64,000 nucleotides of DNA from Candidatus Nomurabacteria bacterium (lineage in GTDB: Bacteria; Patescibacteriota; Minisyncoccia; Phycocordibacterales; UBA918). This document shows, one piece after another, positions 2,299-17,478 of this stretch. A program made the translations under genes and the position numbers. Numbering within the stretch: the first letter of the stretch is position 1; the number at the start of each line of letters is the position of its first letter. The notes under the pieces are model-generated. The model saw only the letters and a program-made list of their open reading frames with translations, did no database searches and had not been told where the DNA came from. The stretch is from positions 665,778 through 729,777 of the forward strand of contig JACKGH010000001.1 of NCBI GenBank assembly GCA_020632075.1, in the 5' to 3' direction.

Positions 2299-2362
2299 AA
2301 TTTCGAATCAGTTATGGGTATTAAGTGAAGCTATTATAGCGTGCACTTCCCCAAAGGTCTAA

Positions 2363-2887
2363 CTAGCTAGCCTTTTCCTCTGATTCTTCTCCTTCTTCAG
2401 TAGTTTCTTCCTCTGAAGCTTCGTCAGACTCATCTTCGGCAGCTTCTTCTGTCTTATCTGCCTCAGCAGCATCAACATCAATGGTCTCAACCTTCTTGTT
2501 CGCTGTTGCCATCGCTTCGTGGTAGAAAAATGGATTTTCTTCCTCAACGTGCGTGAGCTTTACGAGCAAGTGTCGAAGAAGTTCCTTAGTGTGCTCAAGC
2601 ACTTCAGAGATCTCTTCGATCGCTGTTGCTGGAGCTTCAAATCGGACCCATCCAAAGTACGCACTGGTGAACTTTCGATTTCGTCCCTCAAGGTACTTAA
2701 CCAGCTCGTACGCCAGATCGATCCGCGCTGGAGCTTCTTCAACTGTGATGGTGCCACCATGCTTTGTAATTGCGTCTTTCAATGATTGAAAAACAGTAGC
2801 TACTTCCCCTTCAGCAACCGTTGGAAGTACGTGGAAGGCTAACTCGTATGAGTTCGCCTCGGCTGCTGGCATTTCTGTCTTAGACAT
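2363..2887 (-). CDS. rpsF: 30S ribosomal protein S6 with acidic C-terminal tail
   Basis: S6 fold motifs (YELAFHVLP...RIDLAYELVKY); sits upstream of ssb-rpsR. Confidence 0.9.
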   Translation of the reverse strand: MSKTEMPAAEANSYELAFHVLPTVAEGEVATVFQSLKDAITKHGGTITVEEAPARIDLAYELVKYLEGRNRKFTSAYFGWVRFEAPATAIEEISEVLEHTKELLRHLLVKLTHVEEENPFFYHEAMATANKKVETIDVDAAEADKTEEAAEDESDEASEEETTEEGEESEEKAS

Positions 2888-2973
2888 TTATATATATGCC
2901 TTAACTGATAACGGCAGCACTGTACCACAGGCTTAGGTGGCAAACAAGGGGGCGGAGCCGGCCTTGTTAAATT

Positions 2974-3921
2974 ATGCTAAAATACTCCAACATGAAACTT
3001 TCGCACGACGCAGTACTGTACCTCACTGGAGCAATTGCTGTGATCGGTATCATCACCGCAACGTACTTTGGCATGCAAAGCAAGGACCGAGCGGTACAAA
3101 TTGAAAATCTCCTCCAAGAACGTAATGCTCTCCTGCAAAAAAACAACCAGAAAGATTCTGAGCTAGCGGCAGCAAGCAGTACGATCGCTGAACTACATGG
3201 CGAACTAGAAGACTTCAAGGAAGAGCTGGAGGAACTCGCCGATGACTACCGCGATGAACGAAACCGCAATGAAGAATTTGAAGACCAGATCCGTGATCTC
3301 GCCGGTACTCTTGGTGATCTCGACAAACTTGCTAAAACCGATGAAGAACTCCTGGCAAAATATTCAAAGGTGTATTTTCTGAATGAAAACTACATTCCGG
3401 CCAAACTAGAGCAAATCCCAGATAAGTACATTCTGTCTGGCAAGAAGGACCAGTACTTCCATGCTGATGCATACGACCACTTAGAGGATCTATTGAAGGC
3501 GGCCGCAAAAGACGATGTCGATCTAAAAGTAGTGTCTGCCTATCGCTCATTTGACGAACAAACTGATCTGAAAGGACAGTACACACAAGTATACGGCACT
3601 GGCGCAAACGCGTTCTCGGCTGACCAAGGCTATTCAGAACACCAGCTCGGCACCACCGTAGATCTTACTGTTGATTCTGTCGGTGGAGCCTATACCAGCT
3701 TCAAGGATACCGAAGCATACCAGTGGTTGCTTGATAATGCATACAAATACGGTTTCATCCTCTCCTACCCTGAAGATAACGACTTTTACATCTTTGAACC
3801 ATGGCACTGGCGTTTCGTAGGCACTGAACTTGCTCGCGATCTCCACCGTAGCAGTAGCAAGACGTTCTACACCATGGACCAGCGCGAGATAAACGATTAT
3901 CTCCTCAATTTCTTTGACTAG
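2974..3921 (+). CDS. D-alanyl-D-alanine carboxypeptidase, peptidase M15B (VanY-like), with N-terminal TM segment and coiled coil
   Basis: SAYRSFDEQ...GYSEHQLGTTVDL...EPWHWRF matches the zinc D,D-peptidase motifs. Confidence 0.75.
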   Translation: MLKYSNMKLSHDAVLYLTGAIAVIGIITATYFGMQSKDRAVQIENLLQERNALLQKNNQKDSELAAASSTIAELHGELEDFKEELEELADDYRDERNRNEEFEDQIRDLAGTLGDLDKLAKTDEELLAKYSKVYFLNENYIPAKLEQIPDKYILSGKKDQYFHADAYDHLEDLLKAAAKDDVDLKVVSAYRSFDEQTDLKGQYTQVYGTGANAFSADQGYSEHQLGTTVDLTVDSVGGAYTSFKDTEAYQWLLDNAYKYGFILSYPEDNDFYIFEPWHWRFVGTELARDLHRSSSKTFYTMDQREINDYLLNFFD

Positions 3922-3992
3922 AGACTGGACAAGTTAGATAAATTATTGTAATTTCCTATCTGGAAAAACAACGACACAACGAGGCAAAATAG

Positions 3993-4811
3993 ATGTCGAT
4001 TACAACCGTGCCGAAGCTCTTTGACGTTGTCAACATCGTCGCTCAGACAACAGACCTGATCCGAGACAACTTCCGCAACCATAACCACTCGCCCCACCAG
4101 CTACGCTGCATGATCGATGCTGCATTACAAGACTGGGCAACCAATCAAGACCTGGGGTACATAAGCAGTCAAAGTAGTTCATACTCAGGGCAAGACTACG
4201 TCCTTTGCACCGAACCACTAGAGAGTGCTGATAAGTATGTGTACGGCTTCGCTGAAGCGACTACCATCGCCTGTATCATGGAGCGCGCAGGTGATAAGTG
4301 GTTACCACAAGTAGCTGTGATACACGATGCGCTGCACCAATGGACCTGGGCAACAAGTACAGCAACGCTACCACGCACCAACATTTGGCATAAAGGGTAT
4401 CACCCTTCTTCATTTGCCCCGCATCAGGTGCAAGCACCCTACCGCGTGCAGCTGTCGGAAGACCCCTTCTCCCTCTTTGATCTACACGGACTTGAACAGT
4501 CACTGCGATCAAACGGCGACCTGGTCACAATGTCAGACAACACACCAGGGTTGGTCGGTGGACTTATCCGACTAGGAACAGTGCACGGCAACGTGTATAC
4601 AGGCGACAATGCGTGTATTCCTGCCGCTTCAGGACTCATCTTGCGAGACACTTCAGCAGTCATCACTGATCTGGATGGTCAACCGATAGACGGGTTCGAA
4701 CTATGTCTTGATGGTAACTCTGCAAGCTTGCTCGTGCGCAATGGCATGATCATCGCTGCAAACCATCAGGTGAGCACTGCCATCCAACAGACGATTGCGG
4801 GCCAATTCTGA
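3993..4811 (+). CDS. IMPase/FBPase-superfamily protein, degenerate paralog (metal-binding motifs eroded)
   Basis: Aligns to the downstream paralog, but DPLDG has become EPLESADK and the EE metal site is absent. Confidence 0.55.
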   Translation: MSITTVPKLFDVVNIVAQTTDLIRDNFRNHNHSPHQLRCMIDAALQDWATNQDLGYISSQSSSYSGQDYVLCTEPLESADKYVYGFAEATTIACIMERAGDKWLPQVAVIHDALHQWTWATSTATLPRTNIWHKGYHPSSFAPHQVQAPYRVQLSEDPFSLFDLHGLEQSLRSNGDLVTMSDNTPGLVGGLIRLGTVHGNVYTGDNACIPAASGLILRDTSAVITDLDGQPIDGFELCLDGNSASLLVRNGMIIAANHQVSTAIQQTIAGQF

Positions 4812-4822
4812 AAACAACATTC

Positions 4823-4856
4823 CTCGTCCAGTGAAAGCTGGACGAGTTTTTGTTTC
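4823..4856 (+). terminator. Intrinsic terminator
   Basis: ctcgtccag-tgaaa-ctggacgag followed by ttttt. Confidence 0.7.
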
Positions 4857-4860
4857 TGTA

Positions 4861-4889
4861 TTGACGCAAAATGAAATTACTTGTACTAT
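4861..4889 (+). promoter_or_regulatory. Sigma-70-like promoter for the second IMPase-like gene
   Basis: TTGACG, a 17-nt spacer, then TACTAT; the start codon with an AGGAG RBS lies about 45 nt downstream. Confidence 0.5.
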
Positions 4890-4932
4890 CCAAATCAGCT
4901 TTGTAACTTTCATTTCAACCAGGAGCGCAGCA

Positions 4933-5781
4933 ATGCAACTACCTACACGGAACGATATGATCGACGTGGTCGTCGGAGTGATGAGTGTACCGAAAGACCA
5001 TTTTCGCTCCCTCATTCTGGTCGACACGAAAGAAGACGGCACGACCGTAAGTACAGTCGACAAACAGATCAATGACCGACTGCTGGAATGGAGTCGCCGG
5101 TACCAAGATGTCGGTTTTATCGGCGAAGAAGGCAACGACTACCACGGCGAGGATTATATCCTCTGTGCCGATCCGCTTGACGGCAGTGACGCCTTCGCCG
5201 GCGGCAACGGCAATGTCGGTATTGCTCTGACTCGTCTATGTCGCATTGCACACAATCTGTGGCTACCCGAAATCACCGTGGTCGCAGACCCGCTCCACAA
5301 CATGGTATGGACAGCCAGTCAAGACGAGCAGACCGTGGTGGCACGACTAGATCGTGGTCAGATGACAAGACAACAATGTCAAACCACTGATCGCTCGCCA
5401 CGTCGCGTAACGATCTCAACCTGGCCTGGTGTCCCCTTCCATCTCGATGAAGTCCAGCGCGAAGTCATGCGCCGACGTGAACAGTACTTCCAACAGGAAT
5501 TTGGCTGCATCTTGATCCCGAGCGCACTCGTAGCCTCTTGCCTGTGGCAAGCCACTGTTTTTGCCGGTAGTGGTGCGACCGAGTCGATCGCAACTTCCCT
5601 CCTTGTACAGCAAGCCGGAGGAGTGGCAGTAGACTGCTATGGTCAACCACTGATCCACTTCAAACTGGGTGAACGCTATGGCAAGGTCGATTTCATTCTG
5701 GAAGACGGCGCCATCATGGCCGCAAATCAATCGATCGCCGATGACCTGGTGAGGCTCATTCACTCCAAACAAGCTGCGTAG
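4933..5781 (+). CDS. Inositol monophosphatase-family protein (divergent; WD motif replaced)
   Basis: IGEEG...DYILCADPLDGSDAF matches IMPase motif A; the C-terminal region is collinear with IMPases. Confidence 0.6.
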   Translation: MQLPTRNDMIDVVVGVMSVPKDHFRSLILVDTKEDGTTVSTVDKQINDRLLEWSRRYQDVGFIGEEGNDYHGEDYILCADPLDGSDAFAGGNGNVGIALTRLCRIAHNLWLPEITVVADPLHNMVWTASQDEQTVVARLDRGQMTRQQCQTTDRSPRRVTISTWPGVPFHLDEVQREVMRRREQYFQQEFGCILIPSALVASCLWQATVFAGSGATESIATSLLVQQAGGVAVDCYGQPLIHFKLGERYGKVDFILEDGAIMAANQSIADDLVRLIHSKQAA

Positions 5782-5794
5782 CAGCAAAAACCAT

Positions 5795-5833
5795 GGCCCG
5801 TCCAGCATGCTGGACGGGCCTCTTTCTTTTTTG
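5795..5833 (+). terminator. Intrinsic terminator
   Basis: ggcccgtccagc-atg-ctggacgggcc plus tctttctttttt; its stem core is shared with the 4823 terminator. Confidence 0.75.
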
Positions 5834-5849
5834 GTATTCTATAGCACAC

Positions 5850-6824
5850 ATGAACATTTCCATTGCGCTACACGAAGGCTTAGTCGACGGCATTCCAGAA
5901 AAACCAGAACGATTTGTAGAGACCGTTATGTCTGACGTATTCATCTACCCCACCGTAGTGCGCAAGGTGTACAAAGATAACCGCAAAGGCTTCTTCACTG
6001 ACCTACGCGACCTTGAAGTCCGTCGCCAGTACTACGCCGAAGACTTCGCCTGGAACCAAGGTGCTTCGAAAGATATTCACCTTGGACTGCGCGGTGTCCA
6101 ACAGACAGAAGCCGGCGCCTACGAGATCATCGCGGCCGAACTGGCGGACGAATGGTTTATTGAAATGAAACGAGTCCGTGACGACGACACTCTCTTCCGT
6201 CGTCTCAATGAAGGCACTACTACTCGTGAAGATGTCGCTGCTCTCGCTAAAGCACAGACTGAAGCCCTCGATGCTCTAACCGAAGAATACCTCCACACGT
6301 TTGAAGACCTGCTCGCCCGCGGCCTACGCGACCTCTGGCACGCTCGGCTTGATGGTGACTTGCGTATGTTTGGCAAAAACTTCAGTGATCAGATCGCGCC
6401 GGAGCTAACTGACCATCGAGTTGATACGCTCCTCAACTTTTTCCATACTCACGACTACTTCACCAATATGGACCCCGACATGGCATCGGTTGCGATTGAT
6501 AACCACGCCGGAAACGTAGTCTTCCACGAAGAACGTCCGCAATTTATTGATATCCACCTCGCCAAGCGCGACTGGCGCGTGATCGACCGCAACAACAACA
6601 TCGCTCGCATCGCCACTTGTGTGCGCGTCCTCGGTAACAATGAGCTAGCTGACGCCATGTATGAAGCCTACCAAGACCATCATGAGCTAGCACCAGCTGA
6701 AGTAACTGCCTTCCAGGAAGCCTACAATGCGTTCATCAAGGGTTACTACTACACCTATTTGAAACAGCCTGACATTGCAAAGAAATATTTTACGTTTGCA
6801 GATGCGACTTTGGCTGAGCTGTAG
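5850..6824 (+). CDS. Putative phosphotransferase (APH/kinase-like fold)
   Basis: IDNHAGNVVF...FIDIHLAKRDW resembles the HGD-x-NxxN catalytic loop / DFE of APH-like kinases; weak support. Confidence 0.4.
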   Translation: MNISIALHEGLVDGIPEKPERFVETVMSDVFIYPTVVRKVYKDNRKGFFTDLRDLEVRRQYYAEDFAWNQGASKDIHLGLRGVQQTEAGAYEIIAAELADEWFIEMKRVRDDDTLFRRLNEGTTTREDVAALAKAQTEALDALTEEYLHTFEDLLARGLRDLWHARLDGDLRMFGKNFSDQIAPELTDHRVDTLLNFFHTHDYFTNMDPDMASVAIDNHAGNVVFHEERPQFIDIHLAKRDWRVIDRNNNIARIATCVRVLGNNELADAMYEAYQDHHELAPAEVTAFQEAYNAFIKGYYYTYLKQPDIAKKYFTFADATLAEL

Positions 6825-7717: not shown

Positions 7718-9205
7718 TTATGATTCAAGTCGTGCAAAGAGATTCTCCGGTTTCTTGTTTGTAAGCACTGCTTCTCTAATAACTCTTGAGGTTTCCGGCA
7801 TGTACGGCTCCAGTTCTACTGCTTTATACCAAAGTTGAATTACCAAGAATTTAATGATTTCTTTTGCGCTCTCAATTTCCTCACCAAGTTCTGATTTAAT
7901 TCTCTTATACGGCTCAGTGACTTGGATCTTTTCGTCAACCGTTTTAATACTCAGACTCATGTACCACTCAATCTGATCATTTCCTGACCAGATGTAATCC
8001 AAGGTTTTTTGAAAATCAAAATTTTTCAATTCTGACAACCCCACTCCTTGATCGTCCAAGAAACTCACGTTTGGCACCTCAACCGGTGCATCGAGGTGCG
8101 TCTCTGCCATTTTCATAATCCGCGCTGTGAGATTACCCAGGCCGTTCACGAGGTTCGCGGTGTACCACTCATCGAGTCGGTCCCAGGTGATGTCGGTGTC
8201 TTCAAATGGATGAACGTGGCGGAGGAGCAAGTAGCGGGTCGCCTCAGTACCATACCGAGCCGTCAGCTCGTACGGACTGATCACATTGCCAAGCGATTTA
8301 CTCATCTTCTGACCACCACTATTGATGAAGCCACCAATGAAGATCTGAGTTGAGGTTGGGAGTTCTGCTGAGAGGAGCATCGCCTGCCAGATAGCGCTCT
8401 GCTGACGAAGATTGTCCTTCCCCGCAAATTGCACCCCTGGCCACCAACCACCGAAGTCGGCTTTTTCTGGCCAGCCAGTCACTGAGATATAGTTGGTGAG
8501 GGCATCGAACCACACGTACATTACATGCTCTTCATCGTCTGGCACTGGTACACCCCAGGCCATCTTGGTCTTGAGGCGCGACACACTGAAGTCTTGCAGG
8601 CCGCCTTCCACAAACTTCTTAATCTCCGCCAAGCGAAAATCTGGCACCACAAAGTCTGCCTGTTCATAGAGGTCAAGGAGTGCCTGCTGATACTTCGAGA
8701 AGCGGAAGAAATAGTTCTCTTCCTCACGCACTTCGATCTCATCATTTGGATGGAGCGGACACTTGCCATGGTCAAGCTCGGAATCAGTCTTCTCAAGCTC
8801 ACACCCCTTGCAGTACTTCACTGCATGGGTCGCCTTGTAGATATCACCCTTCTCCTTGCAACGACGCCACATCTCTTGTGCTGCATGCTTATGATGCTCG
8901 TCAGTCGTGCGCACGAAGTTTGCTTCAGGCAAAATACCAAGCTCAGGCAAAAGCTTCTTGAATTCTTCCGCCAACTCATCGACAAACGACTGCGTATCCT
9001 TCCCAGCTTCCTGCGCTTTGTCGTAGATCTTTTGGCCGTGCTCGTCGGTACCTGTATTTAAAAACACCGGATGCCCCATCAACTTAAAGTACCGGGCGTA
9101 CGCATCGGCGCGCACCAGCTCAGTCGCAAACCCAATATGCGGACTTGAGTTCACATATGGAAGTGTCGTGGTGATGTACTTTGGTGTTTTGTCTGACATA
9201 GTCAA
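7718..9205 (-). CDS. metG: Methionyl-tRNA synthetase
   Basis: Class I HIGH-like region (PYVNSSPHIGF) and KMSKS. Confidence 0.9.
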   Translation of the reverse strand: MTMSDKTPKYITTTLPYVNSSPHIGFATELVRADAYARYFKLMGHPVFLNTGTDEHGQKIYDKAQEAGKDTQSFVDELAEEFKKLLPELGILPEANFVRTTDEHHKHAAQEMWRRCKEKGDIYKATHAVKYCKGCELEKTDSELDHGKCPLHPNDEIEVREEENYFFRFSKYQQALLDLYEQADFVVPDFRLAEIKKFVEGGLQDFSVSRLKTKMAWGVPVPDDEEHVMYVWFDALTNYISVTGWPEKADFGGWWPGVQFAGKDNLRQQSAIWQAMLLSAELPTSTQIFIGGFINSGGQKMSKSLGNVISPYELTARYGTEATRYLLLRHVHPFEDTDITWDRLDEWYTANLVNGLGNLTARIMKMAETHLDAPVEVPNVSFLDDQGVGLSELKNFDFQKTLDYIWSGNDQIEWYMSLSIKTVDEKIQVTEPYKRIKSELGEEIESAKEIIKFLVIQLWYKAVELEPYMPETSRVIREAVLTNKKPENLFARLES

Positions 9206-9238
9206 AATACTCTAGCACAATCGGAGTGAAATGGAACA

Positions 9239-9270
9239 GAAAGGCCGGCCCCTTCGGGGCCGGCCTTTTG
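9239..9270. terminator. Bidirectional terminator, identical core to the 1455 hairpin
   Basis: aaaggccggccccttcggggccggcctttt. Confidence 0.7.
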
Positions 9271-9274
9271 TCTT

Positions 9275-10666
9275 CTACTTCAGTTTTTCTACCAGATCAG
9301 CAATCGCGACTCGCTCCTGCTCGCCCGTATCACGATCACGCACCGTCACGGTATCTTTAAGTGCTGGATCTTCTTCACCAAGCGACTCAAAGTCGATCAC
9401 AATACAATGCGGTGTACCGATCTCATCCTGTCGACGATAGCGCTTCCCGACATTTCCATTGTCGTCCCAAGCCACGTTACCAAATTCCTTCTTCAGCATC
9501 GTAAATACCTCACGCGCCTTTTCTACCAGCTGCGGCTTGTTCTTAAGGAGTGGTGAGACCGCGACGCGGTATGGTGCCAAGTGTGCCGACAACTTCAAAA
9601 AAGTGCGCACTTCACCTCCCATTTCGTCTTCAGTGTATGCTTCACAGAGCACCGCAGTCAGCGCACGCCCTACACCAAACGACGGCTCGAGTACATGCGG
9701 AATAAAACGAGATCCGTCTGGCTCAATATACTCCATCGACACCCCACTTGCTTCCATATGGTTCTTGAGGTCATGATCGGTGCGATATGCAAACCCAGCG
9801 AGTTCATCAAAACCTTTGCCTGGGTAATTGTATTCAAAGTCGATGGTACGCTTTGAATAGTGCGCTAGATCATTTTCTGGCACATCGTACTCGCGAATGT
9901 TTTCGTCAGCTAGACCGATATGACGATGCCAGGCTTGAATATCGAGACGGAGCTTCTCAAACAACTCTTGCCACTCCTCTTCTTTTACAAAATACTCAAT
10001 CTCCATCTGCTCAAACTCCCGCACTCGGAAAAGGAATTCACGCGGCGCAATCTCATTGCGAAATGCCTTACCGATCTGCGCGATGCCAAACGGCATCTTT
10101 GGCGCCATTGAGTCGACGACATTTTTGAAATTCACGAAGATACCCTGCGCAGTCTCGGGACGGAGATATACTTTACCCTCATCACCCGCAGTTGCACCAA
10201 CGCGAGACTCAAACATCATATTGAAATTACGTGCTTTTGAGAGCGCGTTTCCCTTCGGACTCTTTACTCCATTTTCAGTAATAAGTGCATCGATCTCTTC
10301 GAGAGTCTTCCCTTCCGCATCAAGCCCACTGTCTTCAAGCAAGTGATCAGCTCGGAAACGCTCACCTGTTTCAATATCTTCTACGAGCGGATCGCAAAAA
10401 CCAGCTCCGGTATGACCTGATGCCTCCCAGACTTTGGCATTCATTAAAATTGCCGCATCGAGTCCGTACATATCTTCGCGATCATGCACAAACATTTTCC
10501 ACCACTCACGCTTGAGATTATTGTTGAGTGCAACACCAAGTGGACCAAGATCCCAAGTGCCTTTAAGGCCTCCATAGATCTCACTTCCCTGAAACACAAA
10601 ACCACGCCGCTTACACAGCGAAACGACTTTCTCCATTGTTTCTGCAGATTTTTCCATACAAGACAC
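9275..10666 (-). CDS. glyQS: Glycyl-tRNA synthetase (single-chain, class II)
   Basis: MEKVVSLCKRRGFVFQGSEIYGGL N-terminus and class II core motifs. Confidence 0.9.
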   Translation of the reverse strand: MSCMEKSAETMEKVVSLCKRRGFVFQGSEIYGGLKGTWDLGPLGVALNNNLKREWWKMFVHDREDMYGLDAAILMNAKVWEASGHTGAGFCDPLVEDIETGERFRADHLLEDSGLDAEGKTLEEIDALITENGVKSPKGNALSKARNFNMMFESRVGATAGDEGKVYLRPETAQGIFVNFKNVVDSMAPKMPFGIAQIGKAFRNEIAPREFLFRVREFEQMEIEYFVKEEEWQELFEKLRLDIQAWHRHIGLADENIREYDVPENDLAHYSKRTIDFEYNYPGKGFDELAGFAYRTDHDLKNHMEASGVSMEYIEPDGSRFIPHVLEPSFGVGRALTAVLCEAYTEDEMGGEVRTFLKLSAHLAPYRVAVSPLLKNKPQLVEKAREVFTMLKKEFGNVAWDDNGNVGKRYRRQDEIGTPHCIVIDFESLGEEDPALKDTVTVRDRDTGEQERVAIADLVEKLK

Positions 10667-12648: not shown

Positions 12649-13224
12649 CTAGAGATGACTCACTGAAACGGCCTGGGTATATAACCGCTCAATTGCACGG
12701 TGCGTTACATCGTCGTGCTGAGCAGATAGTTCACTGATCGATGTGGTACGAATAGATTCTGGGATGCTTTTTTCATCAACATACCCAAGCGCTGCCAAGA
12801 TGCGCACCTGGACAACCATTTGCACGAATGCTCGCTGTTCAAGCGGTCCAGCAAGGACTTCAAGGGCACTGATCACTAGTGCATAGAGCTCTGGATCGGT
12901 TCCTTCTCCGTGCAAAAAGCGACGCAGTAGCCGCACCACACTAACCACGCTCCCGCGCGCGGACTTATCAGTCGCAGAGTGGTAGAAATTCCGCCCCGGT
13001 TCGATACTGCCGATCTTCCAGCCCGCCTTCCCCTTCACGAGTGACACGCGCAAGAGCGAAAAGTCCTGGAGCGCGTACCGCTGCCGCGAGCGTTCTTCCC
13101 GAACACTACGCGCGTCAGCGTACAGCATCCCCGCGTCACGAGTGAATAGCAAATAACTACGATCAGCCGTATTGCGGTCTTTCGTCCCGCACACGAGTGC
13201 TTCAGTGGTGTAGGTTTCGTAGGC
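12649..13224 (-). CDS. recO: DNA repair protein RecO (short form)
   Basis: N-terminal OB-fold pattern (EALVCGTKDRNTADRSYLLFTRDAGML...ARSVRE) and length/architecture typical of compact RecO. Confidence 0.6.
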   Translation of the reverse strand, partial: AYETYTTEALVCGTKDRNTADRSYLLFTRDAGMLYADARSVREERSRQRYALQDFSLLRVSLVKGKAGWKIGSIEPGRNFYHSATDKSARGSVVSVVRLLRRFLHGEGTDPELYALVISALEVLAGPLEQRAFVQMVVQVRILAALGYVDEKSIPESIRTTSISELSAQHDDVTHRAIERLYTQAVSVSHL

Positions 13225-13454
13225 CATAAAATATAACACAATCTGAGTCTCCTAGACCGAAACACTGCCAGAGGCTCAACGTCCTCGCTCCAAGTATCGT
13301 CGCTGCGGATGTTTCGCTACTGGCAGTGCTCAGTCTAGACCCACAAGGATAGAGTTGGGATTGTGTCGGCACTCAGCGAGTAGGGACTATGCGCGGGAGG
13401 GTTTGGCTGGGGCGCGCAAGGAGCGTGTGAGTCGAGTGCCGACCAATTACGACT

Positions 13455-13755
13455 CTATTCTTTTTGAATCTGGAAACTAAACACATAGTCTCCAGCCTTC
13501 ACCTCTTCTCCTTCCGCCTCTGCATACACAACTGCAGACGAGCCGACGGTTTTGGTGAGTAGCTCTTTGTTTGCGTCGATTGCGGCTTGGCCAGCTTCGT
13601 CTGTCTGGATGGTAAGCTCGATCACATCCTTCTGGCGCAAGACCTTCGGTCTTGCGCCGTCCCTGCACCGCTCGCATCAGTTCGCGCACCGCACCTTCGG
13701 CGAGGAGTTCGGGGTAAGGGCTGTATCAAGTCGAACCCAGCCAGACTCTTTTTGT
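13455..13755 (-). pseudogene. ileS: Decayed 3' tail of ileS: conserved C-terminal motifs continue past two in-frame stops (TAG, TGA) and a +1 frameshift
   Basis: The frame continues as PELLAEGAVRELMRAVQGRRKTEGL, then the shifted frame reads KDVIELTIQTDEAG...; these motifs match the conserved IleRS C-terminal segment. Confidence 0.5.
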
Positions 13756-16700
13756 CTAAATTCGCATCGGCAGCACCTGTTTTACGTTTACCTCATCAGC
13801 AATAATACTAATCATTTCTGGTTGCTTCGGGATTTCGGTTTCCGGCAGATAAAGCGCTTGCATTGGTTGACGAACTTTAACTCCAGACTTTGTTCGCGCC
13901 TCAAGCGCCGAACTCACGATCGTTCGTACGGTAACCATCTGACTTAATAATTCTTCATCCACCTCTCTCCCTTCTGGCCACTTACCAAGATGCACACTTT
14001 CCGCATCGTTATCTTCTTTCACTGCCTGCCAGAGATACTCGGCGTAGAATGGCATGGCTGGTGCCATCACGAGCGCGAGCGTACGGAGCGTGTAGCGGAG
14101 TGTCGCGAGCGCTCGGGTTTTGTCTTCAGTATCTTCGCCCTTTAGCCTGTCACGACTGCGTCGCAAGTACCACACTGAAAGATCATCAATAAAATCCGTG
14201 ATCGGCCGAGTCGCCTTATCAAGCTCGTAGCTCTTGTAGCCAGCGGTTGATTCAGCGATCAGCTGATTAAGGCGGGCGACGATCCAGCGATCAAGTACAT
14301 GACTTGAATCGTCGCCCGCCTTCGTCCCATCCGCGAACATCTCATACATTGCGAGCACGTTATGCAAACGACCAATATTCTTTCGTTGTAGCTCAAGCAC
14401 CTCCTTCTCAGAGAAGTTGAGGTCTTCCGCGCGGATCACTGGTGACGAGAGCAAGTAGAAGCGCATCGCATCGATCCCCACTCGGTTCGCCAAATCCATC
14501 GGATCTGGATAGTTCTGAAGCGACTTTGACATCTTCTTGCCGTCTTCTGCGAGCACAAGACCATTTACGATCACCTGCTCGTACGGTGACTTATCAAACA
14601 ACGCCACACCCAAAACAAGCATCGAGTAGAACCAGCCCCGCGTTTGGTCGAGTCCTTCAGCGATAAACTGCGCTGGAAAATTCTCTTTCTCAAAAGAATC
14701 TGCACACGAGAACGGATAATGAAACTGCGCGTACGGCATTGAGCCACTCTCAAACCAACAGTCAAAGACGTCAGGAATTCGCTCCAGCTTCACACCATTC
14801 TCCGCGAGTACGTAATCATCGATGTACGGTCGATGGAAATCGAGCTCGTAGTGATCATTGTGCGGTAGCGGCGCGTATACTAGCTCACGCACTTCGGCAT
14901 TAGCATGATACGCCGCCTCATCCGCAAAGTAGGCTTCAGACTCCTTGAGACTAAGCCCCTTCACAAAACACTCCAAACCAAACAGCGGACCAGCATGACT
15001 CACGATCAAGATCTTCTTGCCAGCATACGTCTCTTCGAGTGATTCGATGAATGCACCCATGCGTACCTGCACATCTCGGCGATTTTCTGAGCCTTCAAGC
15101 TTCTTGGTGAAGCGATTTTCCCATGAGGTGAACTGCGCGTTGTAATCTTTCCACTTGCCACCTTCGTAATCATCACTAAGATCAAGTTCACGAATTCGAT
15201 CATCCTCAAGCACTTCAGCTTCTGGGAATGCAGCAGCAACGATCTCTGCTGTCTCTTTCGTACGCTGAAAACCAGAGTGAATGATGATATCGATCTCTTT
15301 CGGCAAATTTGCCATAGCGGCAGCAACCTGCTCCTTCCCTTCTTCGGTCAGACCATCGACATTTTCTTTGTTGCAGCTGATGATGTGCTTCACGTTGCTT
15401 TCAGCCAAGCCATGGCGCATCGTGAAGTAGGCATTGCCGCTCGTTGGTGCGAACTCCTGCATCTCCTTGAGCGAACCAAACACCTTCACCTCACTGGTCT
15501 CCGGATTCTTCCAGATCGGCAATGGTGCACCCCAATAGCGCTGGCGACTCACTGCCCAGTCGCGCGCACCTTCAAGCCACTTGCCGAAGCGGTTGGTGCC
15601 CACATGCGCCGGTACCCAGCCAACTTTTTCATTGGCTGCCACGAGCTTGTCTTTGATGCTCGGCACATCAACAAACCACGACGTGGTCGCATAGTTGAGA
15701 AGCGGCGTATCACAGCGCCAACAGTGCGGGTAGCTGTGGGTGATCTTTTCTTTGGCGAAGAGTCGTCCCTTGGCGGCCAGCGCCCGTATCACTTCGATGT
15801 CGGCATCCATATGGTTGATCTCCTGCTCCGGCGAATCCTTTGGCTTTACGAGCTGCCCGGCGAAGTCAGTGACGAAATCTTTAAAGTGTCCGCCTTCGTC
15901 GACATGATGAATAAGCGGCAAGCCGTGCTCCTGCCCGAGCTTCATATCGTCTTCACCGTAGGCTGGCGCGATGTGTACGATACCAGTTCCCTCTTCACCG
16001 ACTTCAACGAAGTCTGCGTGGAGCACGGTCCACGCGTTTGGCGCGTCTTCGGTGAGTTGTTCAGCCAGCCACGAGAATGGTGGTTCGACTTTTTTGTCGA
16101 GAAGTTTCGAACCTTTGATTACTTCTTCGACTTTCCATTTTTTACCACCGAAACCATACCAAACATCACCATTTTCAAAAGTGTGTAGTTCTCCTTTCTC
16201 TAATATGTCTTTTGCAAGAATCAAAAACTTCTCCTCTCCTTTACTAACAGGGAAAGGGTCTACACCTTGCTCATACTGTTTTAACCCCTTCCCCATTTCC
16301 ACAACCTTCACGTACTCAAACTCCTCATTCACCGCCAACGCCATATTCCCCGGCAATGTCCACGGAGTGGTCGTCCACGCGAGGAGTGATGTATCTGGCT
16401 CATCCACCAGCGGGAACTCCACAAACACTGAAATATCCTTGATGTCTTTGTAGCCCTGATTTACCTCAAAGTTCGACAACGTCGTCCCGCAACGCGGACA
16501 CAGGTGCATACTCTTGAAGCCTTCGAAGACCAGACCCTTCTCATGAAGCGACTTGAACACCCACCACACGCTCTCAGTGTAGGTGCTATCCATGGTCTTG
16601 TAGTCGTTTTCCATATCGACAAAGCGACCCATGCGTGGAATGACCTTATGCCAATCATCGGCATATTCCATCACCGACTCGCGCGCTGCTTCGTTGAAAT

Positions 16701-17088
16701 TCTTTATGCCGTACTCCTCGATATCACGCTTGGTCGCCAGACCAAGCTTCTTCTCGATCAAGTTCTCGACCGGCAAGCCGTGGCAGTCCCAGCCCCACTG
16801 CCGCCGTACATGGTAGCCCTGCATCGTCCAAAAACGCGGGATCGCGTCTTTCATGGTGCCAGCGAGAATGTGGCCGTAGTGTGGCAAGCCGGTCGCAAAC
16901 GGCGGCCCATCATAAAAAACGTAGTCGCCTTTTGGCGCGTCGCCCGCTGGCTTCTCTAGTGATTTATTAAAAATGTCGTGTTCCTGCCAAAACGCCAAGA
17001 TCGCTTCTTCGCGCTCGGCTACTTCAGATTTGGGAACGTCGACGACTTCAACTGAGTCGTTTTCACGACCGTGCATTTTAGTATTCAT
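13756..17088 (-). CDS. ileS: Isoleucyl-tRNA synthetase (type 2, eukaryote-like) carrying an inserted histidine-phosphatase domain
   Basis: DGPPFATGLPHYGH, WAVSRQRYWGAPLPIW, DVFDCWFESGSMP and KMSKS motifs; about 1110 aa from the MNTKMHG start. Confidence 0.9.
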   Translation of the reverse strand: MNTKMHGRENDSVEVVDVPKSEVAEREEAILAFWQEHDIFNKSLEKPAGDAPKGDYVFYDGPPFATGLPHYGHILAGTMKDAIPRFWTMQGYHVRRQWGWDCHGLPVENLIEKKLGLATKRDIEEYGIKNFNEAARESVMEYADDWHKVIPRMGRFVDMENDYKTMDSTYTESVWWVFKSLHEKGLVFEGFKSMHLCPRCGTTLSNFEVNQGYKDIKDISVFVEFPLVDEPDTSLLAWTTTPWTLPGNMALAVNEEFEYVKVVEMGKGLKQYEQGVDPFPVSKGEEKFLILAKDILEKGELHTFENGDVWYGFGGKKWKVEEVIKGSKLLDKKVEPPFSWLAEQLTEDAPNAWTVLHADFVEVGEEGTGIVHIAPAYGEDDMKLGQEHGLPLIHHVDEGGHFKDFVTDFAGQLVKPKDSPEQEINHMDADIEVIRALAAKGRLFAKEKITHSYPHCWRCDTPLLNYATTSWFVDVPSIKDKLVAANEKVGWVPAHVGTNRFGKWLEGARDWAVSRQRYWGAPLPIWKNPETSEVKVFGSLKEMQEFAPTSGNAYFTMRHGLAESNVKHIISCNKENVDGLTEEGKEQVAAAMANLPKEIDIIIHSGFQRTKETAEIVAAAFPEAEVLEDDRIRELDLSDDYEGGKWKDYNAQFTSWENRFTKKLEGSENRRDVQVRMGAFIESLEETYAGKKILIVSHAGPLFGLECFVKGLSLKESEAYFADEAAYHANAEVRELVYAPLPHNDHYELDFHRPYIDDYVLAENGVKLERIPDVFDCWFESGSMPYAQFHYPFSCADSFEKENFPAQFIAEGLDQTRGWFYSMLVLGVALFDKSPYEQVIVNGLVLAEDGKKMSKSLQNYPDPMDLANRVGIDAMRFYLLSSPVIRAEDLNFSEKEVLELQRKNIGRLHNVLAMYEMFADGTKAGDDSSHVLDRWIVARLNQLIAESTAGYKSYELDKATRPITDFIDDLSVWYLRRSRDRLKGEDTEDKTRALATLRYTLRTLALVMAPAMPFYAEYLWQAVKEDNDAESVHLGKWPEGREVDEELLSQMVTVRTIVSSALEARTKSGVKVRQPMQALYLPETEIPKQPEMISIIADEVNVKQVLPMRI
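14781..15438 (-). other. In-frame histidine phosphatase (phosphoglycerate-mutase family) domain inserted in IleRS between WGAPLPIW and DVFDCWF
   Basis: Carries the RHG-x4-N, SxxxRTxETA (62-like Arg) and VSHAG motifs of branch-1 histidine phosphatases; about 220 aa with no stops. Confidence 0.7.
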
Positions 17089-17119
17089 AGAATTGTAAGT
17101 TATGTGTATCAGACATAGT

Positions 17120-17160
17120 CTCGGTGGTGCGGCTGCCTTTGGCAGCCGCGCCACCGAGAC
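17120..17160. promoter_or_regulatory. 20-bp near-perfect palindrome in the ileS 5' leader
   Basis: gtctcggtggtgcggctgcc-ttt-ggcagccgcgccaccgagac lies about 35 nt upstream of the ileS ATG. Confidence 0.4.
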
Positions 17161-17210
17161 ACGCAACGTATCAGGCTGCTTTTTTATCCTATCACCTATT
17201 CGTATTTTGC

Positions 17211-17242
17211 AAAGACCAAAAAGAGCGCCGAAGCGCTCTATT
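17211..17242. terminator. Bidirectional terminator
   Basis: agagcgc-cgaa-gcgctct with flanking A/T tracts. Confidence 0.6.
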
Positions 17243-17260
17243 TTCTGTTGGCACAAACAA

Positions 17261-17478
17261 TCACTCGAAGTCCAAGTCACCAGCATAGTTACGGTCGCAT
17301 GGCACCGAACCAGCCTGAGGTTGTTGCTGGGGTTGCGGCTGTTGTGTTTGACGCAACCAGGGGACTTGTTGTTGCATCTGTTGGGGACCTTTACCGGTCG
17401 TGGGTAAAGTGTCCAAAAAGGTCTCCTTGATAAGAATCTGATTAGGATCAGTCTCTTCGTCAGTGACACTCTCGTTAG
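17261..17478 (-). CDS. Small Gln/Pro-rich hypothetical protein (72 aa)
   Basis: ORF between two terminators; low-complexity QQPQPQQQPQ run; the ORF-track N-terminal extension overlaps a terminator hairpin, so the start is placed at MTNESV. Confidence 0.35.

What the first reader, a model, noticed from the sequence alone, without database searches (positions are those of the whole stretch)
14781..15438. Isoleucyl-tRNA synthetase carries an in-frame ~220-aa histidine-phosphatase (phosphoglycerate-mutase family) domain insertion
Seen: between the conserved IleRS segments WAVSRQRYWGAPLPIW and DVFDCWFESGSMP (normally about 30-40 residues apart) lies an uninterrupted insert. It carries the branch-1 histidine-phosphatase catalytic core: RHG-x4-N (FTMRHGLAESN), the Arg-containing SGFQRTKETA motif, and the second catalytic His in ILIVSHAGPL. 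Established knowledge: these motifs define the PGM/histidine phosphatase superfamily, and the insertion site lies in the catalytic core upstream of the KMSKS motif, in the segment between the ISRQR and VLDVWFESG motifs. Inference: this is a domain acquisition inside an essential aaRS. It could act on phosphorylated nucleotides (for example Ap4A/ppGpp-like products or 2',3'-cyclic/3'-phospho tRNA ends) or be a moonlighting module. I am not aware of this architecture being described.
Basis: partly seen in the sequence, partly recalled or inferred. Interest (0 to 1): 0.7.

Follow-up and report, generated by a model that had tools for sequence, protein, structure and literature searches.

The report
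Phosphatase domain inside isoleucyl-tRNA synthetase
The enzyme that loads isoleucine onto tRNA in this tiny Patescibacteria (CPR) bacterium carries a complete phosphatase, which looks active, spliced into its catalytic core. Hundreds of related species share the trait, and valyl-tRNA synthetase of another CPR group has the same kind of insert, so there appears to be an unexplained link between a phosphatase and tRNA charging.

Summary
The ileS gene (13756-17088, minus strand) encodes a type-2 IleRS with a branch-1 histidine phosphatase of about 200 aa (Pfam His_Phos_1, E 1e-27) inserted in frame in the CP3 subdomain, between WAVSRQRYWG and DVFDCWFESG.

It is not a mis-join:
- All 120 closest IleRS homologues carry the insert.
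- Up to 389 species-representative genomes carry it, and the 80 examined are all labelled Patescibacteria.
- dN/dS against the nearest relative is about 0.03.
- The catalytic residues R558, H559, R609, E634 and H698 are invariant.

New findings:
- Free-standing homologues of about 190 aa lie directly upstream of an insert-less ileS (argS-phosphatase-ileS) in 36 of 42 informative metagenome loci. The pairing therefore exists both as operon neighbours and as an insertion.
- A separate clade of the same phosphatase type sits at the homologous site in ValRS of Peregrinibacteria and Gracilibacteria.
- Copies occur in tandem (up to four) and in other loops around KMSKS, and every full-length copy keeps the catalytic residues.

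The substrate is unknown. The fold is closest to small-molecule phosphatases (PhoE, iPSP). I found no description of this architecture in the searchable literature. I class it as a new variant of known kinds, of real interest to aaRS specialists.

The parts
13756..17088 (-). ileS coding sequence as it reads in the window (1110 aa): a type-2, eukaryote-like isoleucyl-tRNA synthetase with an internal phosphatase domain
   Evidence: ORF. (Pfam tRNA-synt_1, His_Phos_1, Anticodon_1). (NCBIfam TIGR00392 ileS equivalog, 857.9 bits against a cut-off of 621.4). (identical to P0009 in NCBI, on a 1.0-Mb contig). (best PDB matches are cytoplasmic-type IleRS, E 5e-204, against S. aureus type 1, E 5e-88).
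15448..17088 (-). N-terminal IleRS part (aa 1-547): first half of the Rossmann fold with HYGH (aa 70-73, 16870-16881), the CP1 editing domain (TTTPWTLP, GTGIVHIAPAYGEDD), CP2, and the start of CP3 including WAVSRQRYWG (aa 511-520, 15529-15558)
   Evidence: Direct reading of the translation. Alignment to 7d5c. Domain names from C. albicans IleRS (PMC7191050).
14842..15447 (-). The insert relative to insert-less IleRS (aa 548-749). The phosphatase fold proper is aa ~550-741 (14866-15441) and the Pfam His_Phos_1 match is aa 557-721 (14926-15420).
   Evidence: boundaries. (AlphaFold model of the domain, pLDDT 91.7, pTM 0.88). (Foldseek TM 0.72-0.74 to iPSP1 4ij5 and PhoE 1h2e). (dN/dS 0.03 against L004).
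15412..15417 (-). Codons of R558-H559 (RHG motif; H559 is the predicted phospho-accepting nucleophile)
   Evidence: Invariant in 46 full-length homologues and in 20 diverse inserts. R and H are kept in every copy that covers this part of the domain among the 150 cluster representatives.
15262..15264 (-). Codon of R609 (second phosphate-binding Arg, in the SGFQRT motif)
   Evidence: Invariant. Aligns with R59 of PhoE in the profile alignment.
15187..15189 (-). Codon of E634 (predicted general acid/base, RIRELD)
   Evidence: Invariant. Glu, or Asp in a few copies, across nearly all copies.
14995..14997 (-). Codon of H698 (second catalytic His, ILIVSHAG)
   Evidence: Invariant.
13756..14841 (-). 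C-terminal IleRS part (aa 750-1110): rest of CP3 (DFHRPYID), DVFDCWFESG (aa 773-782, 14743-14772), EGLDQTRGWF, KMSKS (aa 852-856, 14521-14535) and the anticodon-binding helical domain
13455..13755 (-). Out-of-frame remnant of the IleRS C-terminal domain (Pfam DUF5915), broken by at least 2-3 indels. It is intact in all close homologues.
   Evidence: tblastn of homologue C-termini hits two frames. (DNA alignment with L004 shows 1-nt indels). (coordinates). (homologues are 1160-1220 aa and carry PF19302; the window protein lacks it).
12649..13239 (-). recO-like gene immediately downstream. It belongs to the conserved neighbourhood (argS-[phosphatase]-ileS-recO-DUF11 protein) shared with loci that carry the free-standing phosphatase.
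   Evidence: RecO_N. (the same order in L001 and in the standalone loci).

Best explanation
SHOWN.
- The window's ileS encodes a complete type-2 IleRS. A whole branch-1 histidine phosphatase of the PhoE/iPSP type, about 195 residues, is inserted in frame at the tip of the CP3 subdomain. In Thermus and in some CPR relatives this is the zinc-knuckle hairpin between the ISRQR helix and the DVWFxSG strand. The site lies about 100 residues upstream of KMSKS.
- The insert is a fixed, selected trait of Kaiserbacteria-like Patescibacteria.
- The insert equals a full free-standing enzyme. In related CPR lineages that enzyme is encoded directly upstream of, and usually overlapping, an insert-less ileS (argS-phosphatase-ileS).
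- A separate clade of the same phosphatase type sits at the homologous CP3 site in ValRS of Peregrinibacteria and Gracilibacteria.
- Copies have multiplied (up to four) and also occupy loops just before and just after KMSKS. Every full-length copy keeps the catalytic Arg-His...Arg...Glu...His set.

INFERRED.
- The domain folds independently, because its first and last strands are neighbours in the fold, and it works as a phosphomonoesterase through a phospho-histidine (H559) intermediate.
- Its persistent genetic coupling to IleRS (first as operon neighbour, then as an internal domain) and its convergent placement around the synthetic active site of two class Ia synthetases suggest that its substrate is tied to aminoacylation.
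- My preferred guess, held with low confidence, is that it removes a phosphate from an adenosine-type ligand that would otherwise block the adenylate/A76 pocket. Candidates are a 3'(2')-phosphorylated or pyrophosphorylated tRNA CCA end, or a 3'-phospho-nucleotide or PPi-like product. Tethering would raise its local concentration at the enzyme it serves.
For: - Domain identity and fold: Pfam E 1e-27. AlphaFold pLDDT 91.7 and Foldseek TM ~0.73 to iPSP1, PhoE and GpgP. Profile against PDB, E 8e-24 to 4ij5.
- Clean insertion. CP3 assignment from PMC7191050.
- Conservation: 120 of the 120 best homologues carry PF00300. Of 514 pattern hits in species-representative genomes, 389 encode a relative, and the best 80 are full length. 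321 clusters at 50% identity score E<=1e-30.
- Selection: dN/dS 0.03. Catalytic residues invariant.
- IleRS is intact: TIGR00392 above cut-off, with HIGH, KMSKS and editing motifs present.
- Operon link: 50 standalone genes found. ileS is adjacent downstream in 36 of 42 informative loci, and argS is adjacent upstream in 30 of 35. argS lies directly upstream of the insert-bearing ileS in 18 embedded loci and within 4.5 kb in 29 more.
- ValRS: 73 of 120 relatives carry 1-4 copies, with a clean insert at the homologous site.
- Additional sites B and C and tandem copies.
- Separate ValRS clade of the domain.
Against: - No biochemical data exist, and the substrate is unknown.
- The nearest solved relatives are small-molecule phosphatases (phosphoserine, glucosyl-3-phosphoglycerate, riboflavin-pathway and alpha-ribazole phosphatases), not RNA or protein phosphatases.
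- The free-standing form shows that covalent tethering is not required.
- Two insert-less valS loci had no phosphatase neighbour, so the operon pattern was not replicated for ValRS.
- The full-length AlphaFold model was too poor (pTM 0.48) to tell whether the phosphatase pocket faces the synthetic site.
- Only IleRS and ValRS are affected. A general PPi or tRNA-end function would be expected in more synthetases.
- No hit to known defence-system models.
Confidence: 0.6

Rival explanations
1. Hitch-hiking housekeeping enzyme. The domain is an ordinary small-molecule phosphatase with no mechanistic link to tRNA charging. In streamlined CPR genomes it was first packed into the argS-ileS operon and later slipped into a tolerant surface loop of IleRS. 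Being encoded there only guarantees co-expression.
For: - Its closest solved relatives are metabolic phosphatases.
- Free-standing orthologues with the same invariant residues exist and presumably act in trans.
- The insertion sits in a variable peripheral subdomain, CP3, which differs in topology between IleRS types (PMC7191050).
- P0208 shows that CPR IleRS tolerates other foreign domains, namely an IS200-like domain and a GNAT domain.
Against: - A different clade of the domain was captured independently at the homologous site in ValRS.
- Further copies lie in loops that flank KMSKS.
- Tandem arrays of up to four copies all keep the catalytic set in the part present.
- The gene is very consistently adjacent to ileS, often overlapping it, across loci of 27-47% GC.
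Confidence: 0.28
2. Built-in protein phosphatase. The module reverses inhibitory phosphorylation of the synthetase itself, near the KMSKS loop. The analogy is to HipA-type kinase toxins that phosphorylate class I synthetases (my own knowledge: HipA acts on GltX and HipT on TrpS).
For: - All insertion sites (A, B, C) bracket the KMSKS loop.
- Copy-number expansion resembles an arms race.
- From my own knowledge, the His_Phos superfamily includes protein phosphatases (SixA, PGAM5, Sts-1).
Against: - There is no evidence here for such kinases.
- The nearest relatives are small-molecule enzymes.
- No match to defence or conflict models.
- The free-standing form is a constitutive operon member.
Confidence: 0.07
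3. Non-catalytic module. The phosphatase fold has been co-opted as a structural spacer or as a sensor that binds a phospho-ligand and regulates IleRS without turnover.
For: Domain insertions in synthetases often serve RNA binding or regulation (general knowledge). The insert diverges faster than the IleRS core: 53% against 74% mean identity to the window protein.
Against: The full catalytic set (R558, H559, N565, R609, E634, H698) is invariant or nearly so in every full-length copy examined, including tandem copies and the ValRS copies. Pseudo-enzymes normally lose such residues.
Confidence: 0.04
4. Artefact or selfish element: an assembly chimera, an intein, or another mobile insertion that is removed or is decaying.
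For: The same gene shows frameshifts at its 3' end, so the assembly is not error-free.
Against: - The same insert occurs at the same site in hundreds of independently assembled genomes, on contigs up to 1 Mb.
- The reading frames are uninterrupted at 1160-1270 codons.
- dN/dS is 0.03.
- Pfam finds no intein, Hint or homing-endonuclease match.
- The junction lacks the nucleophile an intein needs after its C-terminal Asn (here HN|D).
Confidence: 0.01

Closest known systems
Free-standing branch-1 histidine phosphatases of the PhoE / iPSP / GpgP / CobC group (B. stearothermophilus PhoE 1h2e; H. thermophilus phosphoserine phosphatase iPSP1 4ij5)
   Same: About 200 aa with the same alpha/beta fold (Foldseek TM ~0.73). 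The same catalytic residues: RHG...N, Arg, Glu, His. Profile E 8e-24 to 4e-22. CPR genomes encode free-standing orthologues of the insert, about 190 aa.
   Different: Here the enzyme is not a separate protein but an internal domain of IleRS. It reaches no NCBIfam equivalog cut-off (best is dPGM_arch, 70 bits against 225), so its substrate cannot be transferred by homology.
Type-2 (eukaryote-like) IleRS: T. thermophilus 1ile, C. albicans 6ldk, S. cerevisiae 7d5c, P. megaterium IleRS2 8c8u
   Same: All core domains and motifs are present (HIGH, CP1 editing, CP2, CP3, KMSKS, helical anticodon-binding domain). E 5e-204 to 2e-191. Passes the ileS equivalog model.
   Different: About 200 extra residues with their own catalytic centre lie inside CP3. 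The CP3 zinc ligands are lost in this lineage. The C-terminal domain is out of frame in the window.
Catalytic or accessory domains nested in synthetase cores: the CP1 editing domain of IleRS/ValRS/LeuRS, the INS editing domain of bacterial ProRS, the leucine-specific domain of LeuRS, and NCBIfam 'ileS_w_GNAT' (NF040702)
   Same: These are precedents for a second folded domain, sometimes catalytic, inserted into a loop of the aminoacylation domain or fused to IleRS.
   Different: The nested catalytic domains (CP1, INS) are hydrolases that act on aminoacyl-tRNA or adenylate. None is a phosphatase. The window protein does not match ileS_w_GNAT (331 bits against a cut-off of 1999).
Fusions of His_Phos_1 with nucleic-acid or nucleotide enzymes: mycobacterial Rv2228c-type bifunctional RNase H/acid phosphatase (NF005567) and MutT1 Nudix-histidine phosphatase (NF052459)
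   Same: A PhoE/CobC-like histidine phosphatase is covalently joined to an enzyme of RNA or nucleotide metabolism. The insert hits NF005567 at E 1.4e-16, below its cut-off.
   Different: Those are end-to-end fusions, not insertions into a catalytic core. The partner enzyme is different, and they are not found in CPR synthetases.

Membership tests
Histidine phosphatase superfamily, branch 1 (Pfam PF00300 His_Phos_1) | Sequence matches the family HMM above the curated gathering score | tested here: met
   97.3 bits (insert alone) and 92.5 bits (whole protein) against a cut-off of 21.7.
Histidine phosphatase superfamily, branch 1 (Pfam PF00300 His_Phos_1) | RHG motif with the nucleophilic His, second Arg, acid/base Glu and second His | tested here: met
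   R558-H559-G560, N565, R609, E634 and H698 are invariant in 46 full-length homologues and in 20 diverse inserts. They are kept, with conservative Glu-to-Asp exchanges, in nearly all copies among 150 cluster representatives.
Histidine phosphatase superfamily, branch 1 (Pfam PF00300 His_Phos_1) | Mixed alpha/beta fold of the dPGM/PhoE type | tested here: met
   AlphaFold model with pLDDT 91.7 and pTM 0.88. Foldseek E 1e-12, TM 0.72-0.74 to 4ij5, 1h2e and 4qih.
Histidine phosphatase superfamily, branch 1 (Pfam PF00300 His_Phos_1) | Phosphatase (or mutase) activity through a phospho-histidine intermediate | not testable with these tools
   Requires an enzyme assay.
Cofactor-dependent phosphoglycerate mutase (dPGM) proper | Reaches a dPGM equivalog model, and carries the mutase-type motifs around the catalytic Glu (ERHYG) and the second His (HGNSLR) plus a C-terminal tail (motifs recalled from my own knowledge) | tested here: not met
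   The best dPGM model (NF038349) scores 70 bits against a cut-off of 225. The sequence reads IRELDLSDDYEG and VSHAGPLFG, and the domain ends right after the last strand. It groups with phosphatase-type members.
Isoleucine-tRNA ligase (NCBIfam TIGR00392 ileS, equivalog) | Whole-protein score above the equivalog cut-off | tested here: met
   857.9 bits against 621.4.
Isoleucine-tRNA ligase (NCBIfam TIGR00392 ileS, equivalog) | Class I signature motifs HIGH and KMSKS, and the CP1 editing-site motifs | tested here: met
   HYGH at aa 70-73, KMSKS at aa 852-856, WTTTPWTLPGN and GTGIVHIAPAYGEDD (translation). All are invariant in homologues.
Isoleucine-tRNA ligase (NCBIfam TIGR00392 ileS, equivalog) | Complete C-terminal tRNA-binding domain (PF19302 in type-2 enzymes) | tested here: not met
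   It is absent from the 1110-aa reading frame. Its remnants lie in other frames at 13455-13755. All close homologues have it. This is probably a sequencing or assembly indel artefact, but that was not resolved.
Isoleucine-tRNA ligase (NCBIfam TIGR00392 ileS, equivalog) | It is the cell's only (essential) IleRS, with isoleucylation activity | not testable with these tools
   Only 64 kb of the ~1.0-Mb genome is available, and no tool fetches the rest. Activity needs an assay.
Intein / Hint-domain insertion | Hint or intein domain, N-terminal Cys/Ser with C-terminal His-Asn followed by Cys/Ser/Thr | tested here: not met
   Pfam finds no intein, Hint or LAGLIDADG match. The junction reads ...PLPHN|DHYELD, with Asp at the +1 position.
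ileS_w_GNAT (NCBIfam NF040702) | Score above the exception-model cut-off, with a GNAT domain | tested here: not met
   330.9 bits against 1999. The window protein has no GNAT domain.
Known anti-phage defence proteins (PADLOC-DB) | Match to any defence-system model | tested here: not met
   No hit for the insert. The standalone P0206 gave only a marginal, unrelated hit (E 5e-4).

The most novel reading that the evidence does not exclude
The phosphatase is a dedicated, previously unrecognised partner activity of the branched-chain class Ia synthetases in CPR bacteria. It would be an extra chemical step in tRNA charging or quality control, for example removal of a blocking 3'(2')-phosphate or pyrophosphate from the tRNA CCA end, or of an inhibitory phospho-nucleotide at the synthetic site. 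It would have been recruited first as an operon partner of ileS and then repeatedly built into the IleRS and ValRS catalytic cores.
Probability: 0.25. Interest if true: 0.85.

Novelty: new variant of a known kind. Interest (0 to 1): 0.68.

Why it matters
Aminoacyl-tRNA synthetases are among the best-studied enzymes, and their nested domains (the editing domains) define how translation stays accurate. A second, apparently active catalytic centre of a completely different chemistry, a phosphomonoesterase, turns up inside the catalytic core of IleRS. It appears independently in ValRS. It is also an overlapping operon partner of ileS in lineages that lack the insert. Together these are classic Rosetta-stone evidence for a functional link that nobody has explained.

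If the link is real, it would reveal a new step or a new vulnerability in tRNA charging in the Candidate Phyla Radiation, a huge and poorly understood part of bacterial diversity. It would also give a directly testable system: one recombinant protein, one point mutant (H559A), and a short list of substrates.

If the link is only co-expression, the case is still a striking example of how far genome streamlining can push domain nesting into an essential enzyme.

Tried and rejected
- Geometry of the two active sites. The full-length AlphaFold model had pTM 0.48 and a poorly modelled Rossmann core, and coordinates are not exposed. I could not measure the distance or orientation between H559 and the adenylate pocket.
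- A short-query protein search with the insert found only 8 hits, because the index is word-based. The full-length query and the exhaustive profile search were needed.
- Misassembly, intein and pseudogene readings were rejected.
- A dPGM (mutase) identity was rejected.
- A link to defence systems was not found: PADLOC gave nothing.
- Replication of the operon pattern for ValRS failed. Two insert-less valS loci (L164-L167) have no phosphatase neighbour. That is only two lineages, so the result is not conclusive.
- Seven literature queries found nothing relevant. The AARS Online database paper does not mention any phosphatase. One further query was rejected for syntax.
- I could not test whether the genome holds a second, insert-less ileS, or a free-standing copy of the phosphatase outside the 64-kb window. 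Within the window there is none.
- The name 'Candidatus Saccharibacteria' on many binchicken MAGs is the submitter's label. I did not treat it as taxonomy.
Full report
**What is in the sequence**

The minus strand holds one long ORF, 13756..17469. Its N-terminus as conserved in homologues starts at the ATG at 17088 (MNTKMHGREND...), which gives a protein of 1110 aa.

Pfam finds a split class I synthetase catalytic domain (tRNA-synt_1, E 3e-137) and Anticodon_1 (E 3e-32). Between the two halves it finds His_Phos_1 at aa 557-721 (E 3.5e-26, 92.5 bits against a cut-off of 21.7). The insert alone gives E 1.2e-27. NCBIfam places the whole protein in the ileS equivalog (857.9 bits against 621.4).

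HYGH, KMSKS and the CP1 editing motifs are intact, so this is an IleRS with an extra domain and not a wreck. Base composition shows no sharp break at the insert.

**Where exactly the insert sits**

Against solved eukaryote-type IleRS (7d5c/9wqs), query residues 316-547 align with chain residues 272-492, and query 750-1106 with chain 499-882. Against an insert-less CPR IleRS (L105), query 552 aligns with 480 and query 750 with 483.

So about 200 residues (aa 548-749, nt 14842-15447) replace a linker of 2-6 residues.

In the C. albicans IleRS structure paper this region is the CP3 subdomain (residues 473-534). It joins CP2 to the second half of the Rossmann fold and carries a zinc motif in Thermus IleRS (PMC7191050). 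Insert-less CPR relatives and a minority of insert-bearing ones keep the CxxC...CxC ligands on either side of the insertion point. The window's lineage has lost them.

**It is real and selected**

- The identical protein is in NCBI on a 1.0-Mb contig.
- All 120 best homologues (64-81% identical, many on contigs of 0.1-1 Mb from different projects) have the same architecture.
- A scan of one genome per species found 514 pattern hits, of which 389 encode a relative of the insert. The best 80 are full-length matches in Patescibacteria-labelled MAGs (Kaiserbacteria, Paceibacteria, 'Nomurabacteria' HK-STAS-PATE), with uninterrupted ORFs of 1160-1270 codons.
- An exhaustive profile search found 321 clusters at 50% identity with E<=1e-30.
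- Against the closest relative (L004), synonymous sites are nearly saturated (pS 0.67). The insert has pN 0.049 (dN/dS ~0.03), against 0.064 for the rest of the gene.
- The insert diverges faster than the core overall (53% against 74% mean identity). Even so, N552, R558, H559, N565, T581, G584, S605, R609, E634, E668, R676 and H698 are invariant.

**What kind of phosphatase**

An AlphaFold model of the domain is confident (pLDDT 91.7, pTM 0.88). Its nearest solved neighbours are small-molecule phosphatases of about 200 aa:
- H. thermophilus phosphoserine phosphatase iPSP1
- B. stearothermophilus PhoE
- mycobacterial glucosyl-3-phosphoglycerate phosphatase
- a riboflavin-pathway phosphatase
- CobC
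- TIGAR

These match at TM ~0.7 and profile E 8e-24 to 1e-13. The domain reaches no equivalog model and lacks mutase-type motifs. It is therefore a phosphatase of unknown substrate.

**New: the same enzyme is an operon partner of ileS elsewhere**

The profile search also returned complete proteins of about 190 aa that start at Met and end right after the last strand of the fold. A metagenome scan with these returned 80 loci. Fifty carry a free-standing ORF of 188-235 codons (stop to stop), and 30 are IleRS-embedded.

- Downstream: of the 42 standalone loci with at least 600 bp of downstream DNA, 36 have an insert-less ileS starting within -120..+150 nt on the same strand, usually overlapping. 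The neighbour passes TIGR00392 (686 bits against 621).
- Upstream: of the 35 with upstream DNA, 30 have argS directly upstream.
- Shared neighbourhood: further downstream come recO and a DUF11 protein, exactly as in the window.
- Embedded loci: argS lies directly upstream of the insert-bearing ileS in 18 of 87 informative cases, and within 4.5 kb in 29 more.

So the pairing of phosphatase and IleRS exists in two forms, neighbour and insert. The simplest history is that the upstream gene was copied into CP3.

**New: ValRS, other sites, tandem copies**

- One representative, P0239, is a ValRS with two copies.
- Among its 120 best relatives (Peregrinibacteria, Gracilibacteria and others), 59 have one copy, 12 have two, one has three, one has four and 47 have none.
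- A matched pair (P0285, 1134 aa, against P0303, 900 aa) shows a clean insert of about 210 aa between WCISRQIWWGHQIP and DEDTLDTWFSS. This is the site homologous to the IleRS site.
- In a neighbour-joining tree, all ValRS copies cluster together at about 25% identity to the IleRS and standalone group. That suggests a separate capture followed by intragenic duplication (a rough tree).
- Some IleRS carry copies between DxWFxSG and KMSKS, or just after KMSKS, or in tandem at CP3.
- Every full-length copy keeps the R-H...N...R...E...E...R...H signature.

**How it most likely works**

Shown: the insert is an independently folding, conserved phosphatase that looks catalytically competent, nested in an intact IleRS.

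Inferred: it acts as a phosphomonoesterase through phospho-H559. The operon linkage, the insertion and the convergent placement around the synthetic site of two class Ia enzymes together suggest that its substrate is connected with aminoacylation.

My preferred guess, held with low confidence, is that it clears a phosphorylated adenosine-type ligand from the adenylate/A76 pocket. Candidates are a 3'(2')-phosphorylated or pyrophosphorylated CCA end, a 3'-phospho-nucleotide, or a PPi-like product.

The main rival, at about 0.28, is a housekeeping small-molecule phosphatase that merely hitch-hikes for co-expression. The small-molecule character of its structural neighbours and the existence of the trans-acting form support that rival. 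A protein-phosphatase role or a non-catalytic role is less likely. Artefact and intein readings are excluded.

**Limits**

- The full-length model was too poor to give inter-domain geometry.
- I could not inspect the rest of the genome for a second ileS.
- Two insert-less valS loci showed no phosphatase neighbour.
- PADLOC gave nothing.

**Comparison with what is known, and novelty**

Both parts are well-known families, and synthetases are known to nest extra domains: CP1 and INS editing domains, the leucine-specific domain, and an NCBIfam model for IleRS with GNAT.

I found no paper describing a phosphatase in any synthetase, in seven full-text queries and in the AARS Online overview. The architecture sits unremarked in databases under generic names.

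I class it as a new variant of a known kind. The finding is robust and, for synthetase specialists, surprising.

Noticed in passing
window 13455-13755 (minus strand), just 3' of the ileS stop at 13756: The C-terminal domain of IleRS (Pfam DUF5915, present in all 1160-1220-aa homologues) is out of frame here. Pieces homologous to it lie in two frames, and alignment with the closest relative L004 (intact 1227-codon ORF) shows single-base indels. This is either residual long-read assembly error or recent decay. NCBI annotates the truncated 1110-aa product.
   Followed up: partly
L002 4701-8100 (NCBI GCA_027024305.1, JALVSO010000054.1), the same gene as in L003 (ENA ERZ23491057): This distant ileS with a phosphatase insert is a single 1104-codon ORF only if UGA is read through. 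Eight of nine in-frame UGA codons align with invariant Trp in homologues, so UGA appears to mean Trp (code-4-like) and not Gly as in Gracilibacteria and Absconditabacteria. Other ORFs of the locus also contain in-frame UGA. A 2021 survey lists bacterial UGA-to-Trp only for Mollicutes and insect endosymbionts (PMC8629427). The organism's taxonomy was not determined.
   Followed up: partly
protein P0208 (1066 aa, from the representative search): An IleRS that carries an IS200-like Y1 transposase domain (Pfam Y1_Tnp, aa 340-461) within its CP1 region, as well as the phosphatase insert and a C-terminal GNAT acetyltransferase domain. It is either a remarkable multi-insert synthetase or a chimeric gene call.
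   Followed up: no
window 16144-16296 (aa ~265-315 of IleRS): About 50 extra residues (VEMGKGLKQYEQGVDPFPVSKGEEKF...GDVWYGFGG) lie within the CP1 editing domain. They have no counterpart in yeast IleRS or in the insert-less CPR IleRS L105 (gaps). This is a second, smaller lineage-specific insertion.
   Followed up: no
window 7718-10666 (minus strand): Two more synthetase genes lie close downstream of ileS-recO-DUF11: a class II enzyme (tRNA-synt_2b + HGTP_anticodon, 9275-10666) and a short MetRS (7718-9205, 495 aa). Neither carries a phosphatase domain. A class II synthetase follows the DUF11 protein in L001 as well.
   Followed up: no
L082 1588-2232 (minus strand), next to ileS at 2315-5968: One genome with the insert-bearing ileS also has a diverged free-standing His_Phos ORF (215 codons, E 3e-15 to the insert profile), divergently transcribed right next to ileS.
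   Followed up: no
L001 4720-8242 (NCBI GCA_034680565.1, JAXOUH010050088.1): A distant ileS with the insert is called as three genes because of one in-frame stop (at a conserved Ser codon position) and one frameshift just after HRPYID. This is probably assembly error or a pseudogene. A Pif1-like helicase and a HAD/HD hydrolase pair flank it.
   Followed up: no
proteins P0129, P0239, P0278 and relatives (ValRS): Some ValRS carry, besides the CP3-site copy, a further phosphatase copy after the QWF(I/V)xV motif (post-CP1). In P0239 an additional ~240-aa segment (aa ~640-880) lies between the two copies and was not identified.
   Followed up: partly
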